NCBI RefSeq assembly: GCF_009914755.1
Contig: NC_060935.1
Direction: 5' to 3' (one strand)
DNA: 64,000 nt
DNA from: the human T2T-CHM13v2.0 reference genome, Homo sapiens
Shown here: one piece after another, positions 3,306-27,400 of the stretch
Layout: each line of letters opens with the position of its first letter
Numbering within the stretch: the first letter of the stretch is position 1
Notes under the pieces: model-generated
Told to the model about the DNA's origin: nothing
Seen by the model: the letters and a program-made list of their open reading frames with translations, nothing else
Databases searched by the model: none
Position numbers and translations under genes: made by a program

Positions 3306-5479
3306 AAATCTAGTGCCTGACAGCAGCTCAGAGAAACAGGTGTAATATCATTCTCATTTTTAACATGATCAAGCTGGTGCAAGGTGGCAAAGAAACAGAG
3401 CTGGAATTTGAGCCAGGATCTGCTGTCTCAATCTAGAGCCCTTTGGTTTTTCTATGTCTACAGGCAACTTTATTTTCAGGGGACAAGAAAGCTAGGGGTC
3501 CTCTCAGAGTCTGACCTGAAATAACCTGCAATAGACTCCTATAGAACCTCCCTCTATTCACATCCTTCCCCCTCCCGCCTCCTCCCCAATAAACACCTGC
3601 ACTCGCCACCGGACTGTGCTGACAGGGTCCAGAAGCAGGAGCCAGCGGACCAGCAGCTGAGAGGTGGGGAGATAGTGGGGAAAAGAGCAATGCCAGGAGC
3701 TACCATTCACATAGACAGTGATTATCAGGCACTACCCAAGCTACTTCGTGAATCCCACAACAACCCTTGGAGGTAGACACTTCTATTTTCTATTTTCTAA
3801 CTGAAAAAAAAAAATGATGGAAGCATAGACAATCCAAGGAACTTGCTTGAATGCATACAGCTAGTAGGTAGCAAAGCAGAGAATTCAACCCAAAACCTGT
3901 TGGCATTTTTTCACTGTCTTATATGGCCTTAGTCTTATATGGACTTAACTGCAATATATGGGAGAACCATCAGTAGCAGAGAAAAATGAAGCAGTGACTT
4001 AGTGGTACCTCAATAAATTACTTCTAAAGCTTTGGAAATAATGGTGCTGATTCAAGGATGGCAAGGACTCACAACACTGTCACAAAGATTACTGCATGAT
4101 AATCCTACCAACAACCCTGCCAAAGACTTATTATTATCCCAATGTTATGGAAAAGAAAACTATGGCACACAGACATTAAGTAATTTGACCAAGGTCCCAC
4201 AGATAGAAAGTGTGAGAACTGGGAGTTGTAGCTGATGACAAATTTAGTGCCTCTTTCAAGCCACCAAGAGGTGAAATTTGGGAGGAGACCTTGTTTCAAG
4301 GTGGCAAAAAGTGAGCTGAACCACTAGTGAGCAGTTTACATTCTTCCTGGAATGTGGCTTGGCTGCTGTCACTTAGCAGCGTTGGGCTACTTTTTTAGTT
4401 AGGCATGTTTGTTTCAATCATTCAACCTGCGAAAAAAAAAAAAAGAAAAAAGAAAAAAAAAGGAATGTCTGCTTTATTTATTCCTTGAGAGGAACAAGTA
4501 GCAAGGCTGGGAAATGTTGAGGGGTTAATGGCACCACAATGAACTGCAGCCCAGGGAAACCAATAAGCAAAATACAATGGCCCAGATGGGAACAGAACTT
4601 CCAAACCTGTACCAGAGAGAGCATAAGACTCAGAGTCAGCCAGACATCTGTCCAGGTCCTGAGCCTGCCATTCACAAGCCCTTATGGCAGGGGTCATGTT
4701 GAGTAACCACCTGATGCCTACTCTCCCTCTTCTGGAGAGTGATGATCCTACAATCTCAAGAGAGTGGCACAAGCACAAAAGGAGTGTACATTCTAAAGGG
4801 TGCTGCACCCCAGGCATGGAAGACATTTGCATTTTTATTTACCCATATGTGCCAGATGTCCCACTGAAGTGAGCACAATCCACACAGCCATGAGATATGG
4901 GGTAGATTCTATTGCTTCCCTCTTTATAGATGAGGACATTGAGGAACAGAAGGGTCGCCCAAGGTCCCATGGCAAGGAGGTGATGATGGTTCAGGGTCTG
5001 AATCTAGTTCTTTCCATCTTTGAAGTTGATGTCTTCTGCAATACCCCATGCTGCTCAGTCAGAATCACCTACTACATGTAGAAATGTACTTAAATGGCCA
5101 TAAAGAGAATTCAGTTTTAACATTAGAAAGAACATCTAGGCCTTGAAGGCAGACAAACTCTAGAATAGATAAGCCAGAAGTTCCAAACGTGCTAGAAAAA
5201 ACAGATTAGGAGCAGCTAGGAGTCTCTGAGGCATTCTATAGCAGAAAGAGCACAGGGACGCACCGTTGCCAATTTTCTTAGGTTAGTTCAATTAATAAAT
5301 TAAATAAATAAATAAAACACAAAACTTAATAAAGAAAAAAGTCAAAACAATCTTCCCCAAACCATCAAAAATTCTATTAATTCATAAGCTACTACTCAGT
5401 ACTTTATTTCTCTAGTCCTGCTTCAACAAATATCTACTTTTAAAAATACTTTTGGGGTTTAGCAGTATAGTGTTTAGTA

Positions 5480-5905
5480 TTTTTTAAACATAATTTTTAT
5501 CATGGCATTTTCCCTTGTCACAAAACACATTCTCAAAACAATACGTAATCTTTGAATAATATTCCGCTGCTAGGCTTGGCCACATTTTACTTATTCCATC
5601 CAATTGTTTACCTTTTTCCTCTCTTTTATAAATAACACTGCAATGAACATTTTTATTCTTAAATTTTCTCTGCCCATCTCTGATTATTTTCTTTGGCTAG
5701 ATTCCTAGAATCAGAATACTGGACTAAACGGAATAAGTGTTCCGAAGTCTACTGACAGTTACTGCCAAATTGCTTACCTAAAAGGGTATATTAATTTGCA
5801 TTTCAACCAGCAGCAAAGGAGAGTACCTGTCTCCCAGCACCCTCTCCAGGATCCAACACTGCCTTAAAAATAATCTCAGCTAGTAAGACAAGTGAAAAAT
5901 AGCAG
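5480..5905 (-). mobile_element. Old L1M fragment
   Basis: aacactgcaatgaacattttt...tactgccaaattgctt...ttaatttgcatttcaaccagcag. Confidence 0.7.
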
Positions 5906-6371: not shown

Positions 6372-7439
6372 TCTAGATTATCTAGTGCATTGCTCAATAA
6401 ATATTTATGAAGTAAAAAACTTACATGGTCTTCTAATTCCACCTACTTCTACCACATTTCTTTCAAGGCAAGAGCTGCCTTCTTCCTCCCTCATCTCTGT
6501 GTGTCCATTTGTTTTCTCCAATGCAACGTGAATGCTATTTATCTGTCATGTGGGATGATGTGAGGGTCAGCTAATTAATGTTTGCAAAGAGCTGCATTGC
6601 TGACTGGTTCTCAGAATAATTGCACATTAATAAAACGTTTAAATGATCAGTTCTCATCCTGAGGTCAAAGCAGAGCTGGGTTTATTTAGTAAAAAGCTGG
6701 TTTCTCTGACTCACCCTGAACTGGATCCTTTCACTGTGGACCTCATCAATACAAGCCCTTCACATTTAAAAGTTTTTTACCGAACAGAAGATACTGAAAT
6801 TTACCTTCACAATAGTTTTGATGTCACAGTTTGATGAGTAAATTAATAATACAAACAAGGTTGGGGAGGGTGGATATTTAACCAGCTTGAACAAATTGCT
6901 TTTAAGCTCTTAAGCACTTTAATTGCTTGCATGATAATGATGCAAATTTTTACATGTCTCGATCCACTTTCAAAGTAGGCCCAGAAAAAGGACCTCTAAA
7001 GGGAAACACTTTGCTAAATTATCAGTTTGAATTACATGGCATATTCTTGAAAGTTACAAAGTTGCCATTCTAGGAGAAACAAGGATTTAGGAGCCAGAGA
7101 GGCCTACCATCAAATGCTAGTTCTAGTGGTGTGACCCTGGGCTCAGCCTTACTGAGCTTCAGTTTCTCTGACACACAGAAAGCATTGAGTATGTGTTCGT
7201 TTTGTTCTTGCCTCATTTTCCATCTCCTATAGGATCACAGGATGAGAGGACTGATGCTGCCCCTCTGCACTTTATTTCCACTGTTTGTGGAAATAAAGAT
7301 TATTCCCCAAATCTAAAATGAAAGAATGGGCACATCCCTTTATAGTGTCATTCTACAAATATAAGCAACTCCTCTTGACATCCAGGGGTCATGATTATGA
7401 CTTTCTGAAATAAAGTCAGAGCAGTAGATAGCTTGAAAT

Positions 7440-7603
7440 CTTGCTACTCCATGTGTGGACAATGGACCAGGAGCATGGCAGCACCTGGGAGCTGGCGAAA
7501 AATGCAGATTCTTGGGCCCCTCCCCAGACCAAATGAAGTAGAATCTGCATCTTAACAAGATCCCAGAACTAGGGGTGTGCACATTAGAGTTTGAGATTGC
7601 ACT
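7440..7603. mobile_element. MER5A MITE
   Basis: cacctgggagctgg...aaatgcagattcttgggcccctccccagacc...aatctgcatcttaacaagatccc. Confidence 0.85.
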
Positions 7604-9039
7604 AACTTAACAAGACATGGAAACCACTCTCTTCTCCCAAACCAATTTTATAGTGAGGAAAACTGGCATCAGGAATTGGCAAGGTTTACCCCAGGCCATA
7701 AATGTACTAACTGCAACCCTTTTGTTTGACTTTCAAAGGGTGCAAGACCAGCCTTTCAGAAATCAACACTCATCCCACAGCGAGAAAAATCGACTTTCAA
7801 AGAAAAACATTCTTAAAACCTAATGTTCTTAAGGATTTTAATGATTAACCAATTGCCTCTGATACCCTTTTGCACTATTGGGTGAGGCTACAGTGATGCC
7901 ATTGTGTAAAGCCAGTGCAGAACACACAGGGAAAGGGAACCGGGGTGCTGACCACTGCTCTGGAGATCCCATATGGCCTGTTTCCTTTCTGTTTTCCAAA
8001 TGAAAGAAAAGCTCTGATTTGATGTTCAGAACATGACAAAGAACAGAAACACCGCTTCACCTTCCCTAGTGAAACTAGAGTGGCATAAGTATCAAAGCAG
8101 CATCTAAACCGTTGTCTGAAGTCAGAGTCAGCAACCAACAGAGCGGGCTCCCTCTGTGGTGACCACACCGTGAAACAATCCTGAGGTGACCTCTCTACCT
8201 GATCTAAAGGAACTCCTCATGTCTCCTGCTGAGCATGGGGGCACCTTGGAAATGGGAGGACTGGACTTCCCCCACTGGTTCCACTGAATTCTTTGTCAGA
8301 TGACTAGCTATCTAACTACAGGGAACACATCTTTTCTGGTCACAGAAATCCCACACTTGAGAAGGGGTAACGGCAAAAGCACCCTCTGATTGATTGAACC
8401 ATGCAAAGAGGGGACAAGATGCCTAACAATTTCCACTTTCAAAATAGCATGTAGGCATGTTGATTGATTGATTGATTGGGCCCTGGAACTGTGAAGGGAG
8501 ACTCCGTGGGGTTGATTTTTCCTAGTAAAATGCCATACAGCAGGTGGAGATAAGCTTGCTGTGGGGTAGAGTCTCAACTGTTTGCTTTGTAAGATCTCCC
8601 AGGCCAGTTTAAGGCCTCTGAACCAAAGGGAAGGAGAAAGGTGGGAGGGGGAAATCCACAGCCTCAGCAAATGCTGAAGACACACACTCTTCTCGGAGGA
8701 ACTATTTGTCATTCACCATGGAGCCAGCCCCACCTACAACGCTGAGGAACATATTTACATATTTCAACTCCATTGCTGGCTGAAGCACTCCAGAAAGTGA
8801 TGATTCCAAGAGCCAGGGAAGAAAAATGTTCTTGGAAAAAGAATTTGTGTATCAGTTCAGCAGAACAGCTCAAAATTATGCAAATTCCCTGCTTGAAGTT
8901 TGACTGTCACCCCTGCCTTCTTCTACCACCTGGGCTTCCAAGCCTGTAAGGGACTGCAAAATAAATAGCCATATTCTGGTTAAAAAGATGAAAGAGACAT
9001 CATGGTTTACCTAACTGCTTTTCATGTGTGACAGAAGCT

Positions 9040-24990: not shown

Positions 24991-25283
24991 TCTTTAATGT
25001 ATTATGAAAAATTTCCCCCAAAATAAAAAAATCCATAAATTGATTATAGCAATTATTTAGCTTTAATTATTGTCAATTCATGTCCAATCTTGTTTTATCT
25101 ACACCCTTCCCTACCCCCATTATTTTGAAGGACTTTCCCTGATTGTTTCATAAATTTCTCTTTTTTTCGTTTGTTTGCATCAGGATCCAAACAAACTCCA
25201 TGTGTTACAACTGGTTGATTTATCTCTTAAGTCTCTGTCTATAGGTTTTCAGCCATCTATTCTTTTCCCTGCTTATACATTAC

Positions 25284-25442
25284 TTTTTTTTTTTCTGAGA
25301 ATGCTTCCGTCTAGTTTTTTTTTATTTATTTTTTATTTTTAAATTTATTATTATTATACTTTAAGTTTTAGGGTACATGTGCACAATGTGCAGGTTAGTT
25401 ACATATGTATACATGTGTCATGCTGGTGCGCTGCACCCATTG
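25284..25442 (-). mobile_element. Severely 5'-truncated young L1 (L1PA2/PA3-like) with 3' transduced tag
   Basis: ttatactttaagttttagggtacatgtgcacaatgtgcaggttagttacatatg; 12-bp TSD tacattactttt (25276-87 and 25443-54); TTTT/AA endonuclease site. Confidence 0.93.
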
Positions 25443-25890
25443 TACATTACTTTTAAAGAGATTGGGTTGTTTGTCCTGCAGAGTTTCCTGCAATCCAGGT
25501 TATTGATTGCAGCCTTCTGGTGTGGTTTAACATGTTCTTCTATGTCTTATATTTCCTGTAAACTTGTAATTTATTCTAGAGGCTCAATCCAATTCAGAGT
25601 TAATTTTTTTTGCAAGACTGCTTTATAGATGGTACTGTGTACTTTCACAAGTCTTTGTATTGTTAGCAGCCTTTGATGCTCATTTCCTACATTCATCATC
25701 TCACTAGAGTTTGCAAACTGATGATATTCTATCATTGCTTCCTTACTTTTAACAGGAATACTTCAATAAAAAGAAACTTCCTCTCATCAACTATTTGGTT
25801 ACCCAAAAGGACAGGATAAATGTTTGATTTTTTCATTTTATTTGCCAGATTTCCAAAGAATGAGTTGGTTCCTTAGAATCTTCCAGAGGC

Positions 25891-26418
25891 GGTCCCGCCC
25901 ACCCATTAATGCATCCTGCATACAACAGCCAGATTAATCCTCCTAAACATGACCTTCATCATCCTCTCTACTCAAAAACCTTCACTGGCTTTCTAACGGC
26001 CTGTGGAATAATCCAAAATACTTGTGGGACGTTAAAGGTGTGGTATAAGGTGTGCTCCTCCTCCTCCAATCCTATTTCTCACTGTCTCTTTACAGCAGTG
26101 TTTCTCACCTCAGCTGGACATTTTGGTCCTGACAATTATGGACATTTTGGACCTGACGATTTATTGTCGGCCACTCTCAGGCATGTGGTAGAACTTTCGG
26201 CAGCATCCCTGGCCTCTACTCACTACATGCCAGTAGCACCCCCTTACCCGAATTATGACAAACAAAAATGTCTTCTAACATTGCCAAATGTCCCCTCTGG
26301 GGGGCAAAATCACCCCAGCTGAGAGCCACCAGTCTATAGGAAGGTCAACTCTGTTCTCCCACCCCCAAAATAATAATAAAAACAGACATTCATTCATTCA
26401 AAAAAAAAAAAAAAAAAA
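25891..26418 (+). mobile_element. Orphan retrotransposed insert (non-autonomous sequence + poly(A)) with 16-bp TSD
   Basis: TSD agaatcttccagaggc (25875-90 and 26419-34); AATAAA 26375-80; poly(A) from 26400. Confidence 0.88.
26096..26331. mobile_element. MER20 hAT MITE (inside the orphan insert)
   Basis: gcagcatccctggcctctac...acattgccaaatgtcccc...ggggggcaaaatcaccccag. Confidence 0.9.
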
Positions 26419-27189
26419 AGAATCTTCCAGAGGCAGACAATGTGTGTGTGTGTTTCTATTTTATAAATCAGTAATGAGCTCATGTATTTAAATATGTTTA
26501 ATATATTTTCATTTATATATTGATGTCCAAATTGTCCCATCTTTGGTCTGTGGCAAACATCTTCATATTGATTCTCAAGTGTTTGATAGCCTTCTTTCTT
26601 TCTTTCTGGAATAAAAGATGTTCTAGGCTAATCTTATATCTTTCCTAAGCCAGACGTGAAATTGTCCAGGACCTCCTCCTTTCTTTTTAAATGGGAAATG
26701 TTTTTTAGAAACCACAGTCTTGTTACTAGGAGTTGCTCATCGCCACTGGGTTGGTATTGTTTCTAGCCTTTTTCTATTGGAATGGCTAGGATATATATAA
26801 TTTTTTGAAAAGAAAATTTGCTATGAGTTTATACCAAACTTATAACTCAGTTTTTACTTAACCTATCAGTCTTCTATCTATCGCTCCTTTCTTCCATCAC
26901 AAATAATAAATGATGCTGTAGAAAAATATGTAATTTGGGGAAATAGTCATAATATATATTTCAGTGGAAAATAATCTTATATATATACCAAATGTATAAT
27001 ACCAGTAGTTATTTCTTAATAAGATTAAAATGAATTTTTAGTTTCTTTTTTTTTTTTGCTTTTTAGTATTTAAACATTTCCATAAGGAATTCATTCTATT
27101 TTTGCTATAAGAAAAGTTTTGCTAAAAAAAACAAAAATAAGCCAGATGGTATAAATTATAATATAGTAAACTGTCTGCCAATCTTATAC

Positions 27190-27400
27190 GTGGGTAGAAT
27201 AATGATAATCCATTACATCTGTGGAGTGCTTTACAATTTACAAAGCATTTTACATCTATTATCTTTCATGATCATCACAACAGCATTGTGAGGAAGATCG
27301 AATAGAAATACTGTTTTATAGATAAGAAAATTGAGGTTTGAAAGGATCACATATGATGGAATCAGGGCTAGAACTCATAGCTCCTGATTTGGTCAGTGTT
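27190..27400 (-). mobile_element. MIR
   Basis: ttttatagataagaaaattgagg. Confidence 0.7.

What the first reader, a model, noticed from the sequence alone, without database searches (positions are those of the whole stretch)
25875..26434. Orphan transduction or retrocopied non-coding RNA: 509 bp of old-repeat DNA moved by L1 machinery
Seen: a perfect 16-bp TSD at a TT/AGAA site, AATAAA 19 nt before a ~19-nt poly(A), and host L1MC sequence collinear on both sides. The cargo has no young L1, Alu or SVA sequence, only an L2 fragment, a MER20 and unique DNA. Repeat annotation would therefore mask it as ancient repeats and miss the event. The perfect TSD and pure tail suggest it is far younger than its cargo. 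Inference: a 5'-truncated L1/SVA 3' transduction or a retroposed 3' end of a Pol II transcript, which also shows passive re-mobilisation of a dead DNA transposon.
Basis: partly seen in the sequence, partly recalled or inferred. Interest (0 to 1): 0.75.

Follow-up and report, generated by a model that had tools for sequence, protein, structure and literature searches.

The report
Old RNA copy pasted by LINE-1
A 509-base piece of non-coding DNA from chromosome 18, carrying a whole dead DNA transposon, has a second copy near TENM4 on chromosome 11, with a poly(A) tail and a duplicated target site; LINE-1 enzymes likely pasted it in from an RNA some 25-30 million years ago, which makes it a tidy new example of a known process.

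Summary
Window 25891-26399 lies between perfect 16-nt target-site duplications at an L1 endonuclease-type site and ends in AATAAA, 19 nt, then 19 A's.

One donor exists, at C18:51443346-51443852 (-), with 30 substitutions in 505 columns (5.9%). It has no tail and no duplication, and looks like a usable poly(A) site. Removing the insert restores the host repeat in 7 of 7 paralogues. So this is a reverse-transcribed RNA 3' end, but old: about 25-30 My by a recalled rate.

No young L1 or SVA lies within 19 kb upstream of the donor, and no sibling copy was found. Most likely source: a non-L1 transcript mobilised in trans (0.58). Main rival: orphan transduction from an L1 that was never fixed (0.35).

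Both kinds are known, and so is retrotransposition of dead DNA-transposon sequence ('retro-DNAs'). Here, though, the whole MITE travelled inside a larger cargo.

One oddity: the last 8 nt of the target duplication are complementary to the donor RNA exactly at the truncation point (about 0.1-0.2% by chance, noticed post hoc). That is what twin priming aborted before any inversion would leave.

New member of a known kind; modest interest.

The parts
25875..25890 (+). 5' copy of the 16-nt target-site duplication; bottom-strand nick site TTCT/AA
   Evidence: (D7)
25883..25890 (+). Last 8 nt of the target duplication; exact complement of the donor RNA at positions -6 to +2 around the 5' truncation point; native to the host repeat
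25891..26399 (+). Cargo: 509 nt copied from G000:C18:51443346-51443852 (-); 30 substitutions in 505 columns, 3 small indels, no intron loss
25891..26095 (+). 5' part of the cargo, present twice in the genome search (here and donor); resembles an antisense L2 fragment (recalled)
   Evidence: (2 of 2 candidates)
26096..26331 (-). Complete non-autonomous DNA transposon (hAT-type MITE; MER20 by recall) with decayed terminal inverted repeats and remnants of its own 8-nt target duplication at 26088-26095 and 26332-26339
26115..26161 (+). 24-nt tandem duplication inside the MITE, shared with the donor and so older than the copying event
   Evidence: (D2)
26375..26380 (+). Polyadenylation signal AATAAA, 19 nt before the tail; also present in the donor
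26400..26418 (+). Poly(A) tail of 19 nt, not templated by the donor
26419..26434 (+). 3' copy of the target-site duplication
25640..25874 (.). Left host flank: old dispersed repeat (L1M-type by recall)
   Evidence: (40 matches from 40 scored of 117 candidates)
26435..26900 (.). Right host flank, collinear with the left flank once the insert is removed

Best explanation
The 509-nt segment is a tailed, target-duplicated second copy of a chr18 stretch, likely made when LINE-1 proteins reverse-transcribed the 3' end of a non-coding polymerase II transcript into an old repeat on chr11 roughly 25-30 million years ago. Steps: (1) The chr18 locus was transcribed on the minus strand in the germline or early embryo (inferred; promoter unknown) and cleaved 19-20 nt after AATAAA, ahead of a U/GU-rich tract (signals shown; their use inferred from the tail position). 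(2) L1 endonuclease nicked TTCT/AA on chr11 and the 3' end primed on the poly(A) (hallmarks shown, enzyme inferred). (3) The top strand opened 16 nt downstream (TSD shown). (4) Copying stopped after 509 nt, where the freed top-strand end could pair with 8 nt of the RNA (complementarity shown, causal role inferred at about 0.45), and the ends joined with no same-sense microhomology (shown). (5) The copy likely fixed by drift and has decayed neutrally; the MITE was a passenger with no transposase involved. The RNA more likely held no L1 (mobilised in trans) than came from an L1 that was later lost.
For: Single full-length donor at 93% BLAST identity; the 5' 220 nt have 2 of 2 candidates only. 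The donor lacks tail and TSD and continues on both sides. Its 40 nt after the cleavage point hold 20 T and 11 GT/TG steps. Empty site restored in 7 of 7 paralogues. No young L1 3' end in the 30 kb read around the donor (best E 0.089, against E below 1e-36 in 5 of 5 positive controls), no stop-free frame above 208 aa, and CpG o/e 0.16-0.18. The 881 nt upstream of the cargo are single-copy, so no longer sibling or partnered copy was found. Polymorphic human data hold 292 processed pseudogenes (73.9% monoexonic) against 48 orphan transductions (PMC12350158, passages).
Against: No transcript, promoter or annotated exon could be shown at the donor. It lies about 64 kb from a same-strand KH-domain frame (MEX3C by recall) and no paper links MEX3C, upstream, lncRNA and 18q21 (0 hits). 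A low-abundance intergenic RNA is a poor trans substrate. Absence of an L1 today does not exclude a polymorphic source: a DMD insertion listed as an orphan transduction carries one citation titled as a 'novel non-coding gene' and another as an orphan from a non-reference L1 (table row and reference titles in PMC4859970). In tumours orphans outnumber pseudogenes 705 to 133 (10.1101/2024.08.27.596794, passages). Only 19 kb upstream was read. The age rests on a recalled rate; the 95% interval of the divergence is 4.0-8.4%.
Confidence: 0.58

Rival explanations
1. Orphan 3' transduction. A full-length L1 once sat upstream of the chr18 site, read through to this poly(A) signal, and copying stopped before reaching L1 sequence. 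The source allele was never fixed, so no trace remains.
For: Size fits orphans (medians 335 bp somatic, 968 bp germline), and 274 of 349 transduction ends have a poly(A) signal 10-30 nt upstream (PMC13009371, passages). 9 of 33 source elements in one study were non-reference (PMC10415145, passages). An L1 supplies promoter and cis preference, which explains why an intergenic stretch was copied. By one operational definition any tailed insert aligning outside exons is an 'orphan' (PMC12350158).
Against: No young L1 in 19 kb upstream. No partnered or sibling copy in the genome searches, though only 40 of 2274 candidates were scored.
Confidence: 0.35
2. Read-through from a distant fixed L1 more than 19 kb upstream, or SVA/Alu-driven transduction.
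For: The region beyond 19 kb was not read. Alus in the RNA's orientation lie about 0.9 kb upstream (recognised by eye).
Against: The modal transduced lengths listed for the most active sources are under 1 kb. Further AATAAA/ATTAAA hexamers lie 1725 and 367 nt before the cleavage point. The nearest Alu is followed by T-runs that would end polymerase III transcription (termination rule recalled). No CpG-rich VNTR is present, and 6% divergence predates SVA by recalled ages.
Confidence: 0.04
3. DNA-level copy (templated insertion at a break or a small segmental duplication), or the reverse direction chr11 to chr18.
For: There is no intron loss to prove an RNA stage.
Against: An untemplated A-tail begins at the canonical distance after AATAAA. 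The endonuclease-type site and 16-nt TSD are on chr11 only. The chr11 host repeat is interrupted and the chr18 sequence is not.
Confidence: 0.03

Closest known systems
L1 orphan 3' transductions (PMC12350158, PMC13009371, PMC10415145, PMC4859970; passages read)
   Same: Non-L1 genomic cargo, poly(A) signal 10-30 nt before an untemplated tail, L1 endonuclease site, long TSD, length of a few hundred bases.
   Different: No source L1 is present upstream of the donor within 19 kb. The event is about 6% diverged rather than polymorphic or somatic.
Monoexonic processed pseudogenes and non-coding retrocopies mobilised in trans (PMC2912911 parts 1-2 of 5 read; PMC12350158 passages; PMC7692494 search listing only)
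   Same: 5'-truncated, tailed copy of an RNA 3' end with TSD and no L1 sequence.
   Different: No parent gene or exon could be shown; the cargo is collinear with intergenic-looking DNA made largely of old repeats.
Retro-DNAs of primates (Tang and Liang, PMC11195612; parts 1-5 of 8 read, supplements not available)
   Same: DNA-transposon sequence moved by target-primed reverse transcription from a passively transcribed parent site; hAT-Charlie is the commonest class (317 of 748 events).
   Different: Retro-DNAs are defined as fragments lacking terminal inverted repeats. Here the entire MITE, both ends and its old 8-nt flanks travelled inside a larger cargo.
Trans mobilisation of genomic DNA by L1 (Ejima and Yang; only the title, matched as search terms in citing papers; content recalled)
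   Same: Non-exonic DNA copied with L1 hallmarks and no L1 at the donor.
   Different: Not read, so no detailed comparison; no exon is carried here.
Twin priming (described in PMC2912911, PMC4245944, 10.1101/2024.08.27.596794; passages)
   Same: The second target end is complementary to the RNA at the place where the poly(A)-primed copy ends.
   Different: There is no inverted segment: the internal primer would have been extended by zero bases.

Membership tests
L1-mediated TPRT insertion | Endonuclease-type nick site (TTTT/AA-like) | tested here: met
   TTCT/AA on the bottom strand; this variant occurs in the disease-insertion table of PMC4859970
L1-mediated TPRT insertion | Target-site duplication of about 10-20 nt | tested here: met
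   16/16; one copy in 7 of 7 host paralogues
L1-mediated TPRT insertion | Untemplated 3' poly(A) after a poly(A) signal | tested here: met
   19 A absent from the donor; AATAAA 19 nt upstream
L1-mediated TPRT insertion | Empty site at the orthologous locus of an outgroup | not testable with these tools
   No other primate genome held; paralogous host copies used instead
L1 orphan 3' transduction | Full-length L1 upstream of the donor on the same strand | tested here: not met
   None in 19 kb; a lost polymorphic source cannot be seen
L1 orphan 3' transduction | Sibling or partnered copies sharing the cargo | tested here: not met
   2 copies only; upstream 881 nt single-copy
L1 orphan 3' transduction | Cargo aligns outside annotated exons (operational definition) | not testable with these tools
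   No annotation of C18 available; nearest located landmark is a KH-domain frame 64 kb away
Processed pseudogene / non-coding retrocopy | Cargo matches the 3' end of a known transcript | not testable with these tools
   Donor has AATAAA and a U/GU-rich downstream tract, but no expression data were available
Processed pseudogene / non-coding retrocopy | Introns removed | tested here: inconclusive
   Cargo is collinear with the donor; most such insertions are monoexonic
Retro-DNA (Tang and Liang) | DNA-transposon sequence with long TSD, tail and a parent site | tested here: met
   family name recalled
Retro-DNA (Tang and Liang) | Fragment without terminal inverted repeats | tested here: not met
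   Both ends present, 9/14 complementary; old 8-nt flanks match 6/8 in donor and 5/8 in insert. Works like one, is not a member as defined
SVA transduction | SVA upstream of the donor; hominid-era age | tested here: not met
   None seen, low CpG, 5.9% divergence; SVA age recalled
Twin-primed 5'-inverted insertion | Second target end complementary to the RNA near the end of the forward segment | tested here: met
   8 nt at -6 to +2; the only site of 7 nt or more in 9638 RNA positions
Twin-primed 5'-inverted insertion | An inverted segment at the 5' end | tested here: not met
   The cargo starts directly after the TSD in forward orientation

The most novel reading that the evidence does not exclude
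The 5' end of this insertion was set by aborted twin priming. The freed top-strand end paired with 8 bases of the RNA, blocked the advancing reverse transcriptase there, was never extended, and was joined bluntly. If general, some 'direct-joined' 5' truncations of L1 copies, transductions and retrocopies are zero-length inversions, detectable as reverse complementarity between the TSD end and the template just upstream of the truncation point. Fixed source-less copies like this one, hidden under old-repeat annotation, would also record extinct germline transcripts or extinct L1 sources.
Probability: 0.4. Interest if true: 0.55.

Novelty: new member of a known kind. Interest (0 to 1): 0.28.

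Why it matters
As a single locus it matters little: it lies about 10.6 kb beyond the annotated 5' end of TENM4, overlaps no listed functional element, and shows no sign of function. As a type it is a reminder that repeat annotation dates DNA by its family rather than by its arrival: a MITE that looks ancient reached this site only in primate evolution, which would mislead dating of DNA-transposon activity and orthology of MITE-derived enhancers. It also proves that an intergenic-looking chr18 stretch was transcribed and polyadenylated in the germline or early embryo. The 5' junction suggests a cheap genome-wide test of one cause of 5' truncation, whose mechanism PMC2912911 describes as long debated.

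Tried and rejected
Rfam scan of 25000-27400: two weak matches far below gathering scores, both outside the cargo, so no known structured RNA.

Search for siblings or longer copies: none.

Young-L1 3' end against 30 kb around the donor: none.

Same-sense 5' microhomology: 0 nt.

nhmmer of the non-MITE cargo parts against held loci and the window: only self and donor, so the L2 label stays a recollection.

Excess CpG as a clue to the donor's state: 2 shared, 5 insert-only, 3 donor-only; too few to use.

A scan beyond 19 kb upstream of the donor was not obtained, so a distant L1 or promoter is open.

Three papers could not be read: the original twin-priming paper, the non-reference orphan case, and the related-L1 transduction survey. 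Any of them may already discuss the junction idea or lost sources. The retro-DNA supplement, which lists 748 events with coordinates, was unavailable, so I cannot say whether this locus is listed; its definition would tend to exclude it.

Literature searches that did not surface this locus or the zero-length-inversion idea. None searched for TENM4 or these coordinates. The library lacks most subscription papers.

Full report
1. Observation. A 16-nt direct repeat lies at 25875-25890 and 26419-26434, identical throughout. Between them are 509 nt of cargo and 19 A's; the single AATAAA ends 19 nt before the tail. The bottom strand at the nick reads TTCT/AA. Exact complex 16-mer repeats are uncommon here: 4 of 105 overlapping tiles, 3 distinct repeats including this one. 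With the insert and one TSD copy removed, the flanks align straight through the junction to 7 of 7 paralogous copies of the host repeat, scoring 132-187 against 84-107 for the filled allele; one copy follows for about 1 kb. Several paralogues carry the same or a near-identical run of bases as the TSD's 3' half, so the target sequence is native to the host. These seven were chosen from the 40 matches because they reached the junction.

2. Donor. A genome search with the cargo gave one full-length second copy, G000:C18:51443345-51443852 (-), at 93%; the other 38 listed non-self matches cover only the middle repeat (40 of 2274 candidates scored). The 5' 220 nt have two candidates only, here and C18. 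The donor has no tail and no TSD and runs on at both ends. It keeps the AATAAA, and its next 40 nt hold 20 T and 11 GT/TG steps, as expected of a cleavage site. Direction is therefore chr18 to chr11, through a polyadenylated RNA.

3. Age. There are 30 substitutions in 505 columns (5.9%, K2P 6.2%, 95% interval 4.0-8.4%; non-CpG 22 of 485) and three small indels. Against recalled human-macaque divergence of about 6.5%, that is roughly 25-30 My, with a range of about 18-38. Within the MITE, 38 of 203 conserved columns are derived in both copies, 5 only in the insert, 4 only in the donor and 3 differ in both. The copy is thus about one-sixth to one-eighth as old as the MITE. A perfect TSD has about a 38% chance of surviving this divergence, so it does not indicate a recent event.

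4. Cargo. Bases 26096-26331 are a dispersed repeat, covered by 28 of 28 loci over its better-conserved half and conserved across its length in alignment. Its ends are 9/14 complementary and its 8-nt flanks match 6/8 in the donor: a complete hAT-type MITE, MER20 by recall. A 24-nt internal duplication is shared with the donor. The rest resembles antisense L2 by recall only. No Rfam family fits.

5. Which RNA? I read 9.1 kb plus 10 kb upstream of the donor. A young L1 3' end finds nothing there (best E 0.089) while finding 5 of 5 controls at E below 1e-36; no long reading frame or CpG-rich stretch is present. By eye there are Alus, an old L1 fragment, and three LTR-like remnants 3.6-8 kb upstream in the RNA's orientation, which could have supplied a germline promoter (names and that role recalled, untested). 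The 881 nt upstream of the cargo are single-copy. A KH-domain frame lies 64 kb downstream on the same strand (MEX3C by recall), so the donor looks intergenic, but no annotation was available.

Two readings remain: a non-L1 transcript mobilised in trans, or an orphan transduction whose source L1 was polymorphic and lost. Germline polymorphism data list 292 processed pseudogenes and 48 orphans (PMC12350158, passages). Tumour data reverse the ratio (705 orphans, 133 pseudogenes; 10.1101/2024.08.27.596794, passages). Non-reference sources are common (PMC10415145, passages), and one disease insertion carries citations under both readings (PMC4859970, table row and reference titles). I put trans at 0.58 and lost source at 0.35. 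These numbers are judgement, not computation.

6. The 5' junction. There is no same-sense microhomology. But the last 8 nt of the TSD are the exact complement of the donor RNA from -6 to +2 around the truncation point. It is the only site of 7 nt or more among 9638 RNA positions; the chance within 10 nt of the junction is about 0.2%, and 19 of 20000 random window 16-mers did as well. I noticed this before testing it, so allowing for the several patterns I might have noticed the chance is nearer 1%. In twin priming the second target end pairs inside the RNA, and the forward copy typically ends close to that site (PMC2912911 parts 1-2; 10.1101/2024.08.27.596794). Here the geometry fits with an inverted piece of length zero. 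I did not see this reading in the passages or the listings, but the original twin-priming paper was not available. One case cannot establish it.

7. Comparison. It meets the TPRT hallmarks that could be tested. It works like an orphan transduction but lacks the defining source element. It works like a monoexonic retrocopy but has no shown parent. It works like a retro-DNA (748 events in ten primates; PMC11195612, parts 1-5 of 8) but fails that definition, because the MITE is whole and embedded. I could not see that paper's coordinate list.

8. Verdict. A real, fixed-looking, L1-made RNA copy of intergenic DNA: a new member of a known kind, interest 0.28. The junction hypothesis is the part a specialist might want to test. 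A neighbouring L1 insertion with an alpha-satellite tag is described under Noticed in passing and may deserve its own look.

Noticed in passing
window 25276-25454 (- strand): A separate, severely truncated primate L1 insertion (about 100 nt of 3' end) with a 12-nt TSD at 25276-25287 and 25443-25454 and a second poly(A). Between the two A-tracts lie about 20 nt matching a satellite with 171-173-nt periodicity (alpha satellite by recall). This is a tiny 3' transduction from an L1 sitting in centromeric DNA. The motif with a preceding A-run has 18 other matches at up to 1 mismatch, all at positions I recall as centromeric or pericentromeric, and 0 in the reversed control.
   Followed up: partly
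L055 (G000:C18:68445708-68445849, -): A second chromosome-arm L1 insertion with the same satellite tag, ending at the same base before its poly(A). This points to one or more centromeric source L1s exporting short satellite tags to the arms. The search listed 4 papers; passages read from two of them did not describe this.
   Followed up: partly
L054 (C3:96.42 Mb), L039 and L040 (C1:126.77-126.78 Mb), L045 (C16:37.86 Mb), L046 (C19:25.25 Mb), L047 (C20:29.77 Mb), L042 (C6:61.33 Mb): Six L1 3' ends and one Alu end at the same position of the satellite monomer, an apparent recurrent insertion site. L054 is closest to the window's L1 (91 of 93) and has AATAAA in its tail, but satellite lies 5.8 kb upstream (L056), so it is not full length. 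No source could be assigned. L046 and L047 carry their own extra pieces between L1 and satellite.
   Followed up: partly
L031 about 4480-5735, 6800-7500 and 8195-8870 (C18:51.447-51.452 Mb): Three LTR-like remnants, oriented with the donor RNA, 3.6-8 kb upstream of the cargo; candidate promoters. Recognised by eye, names recalled.
   Followed up: no
window 55625 and 55777: Another exact 16-nt direct repeat, 152 nt apart; could be a TSD of a small insertion or two pieces of an old repeat.
   Followed up: no
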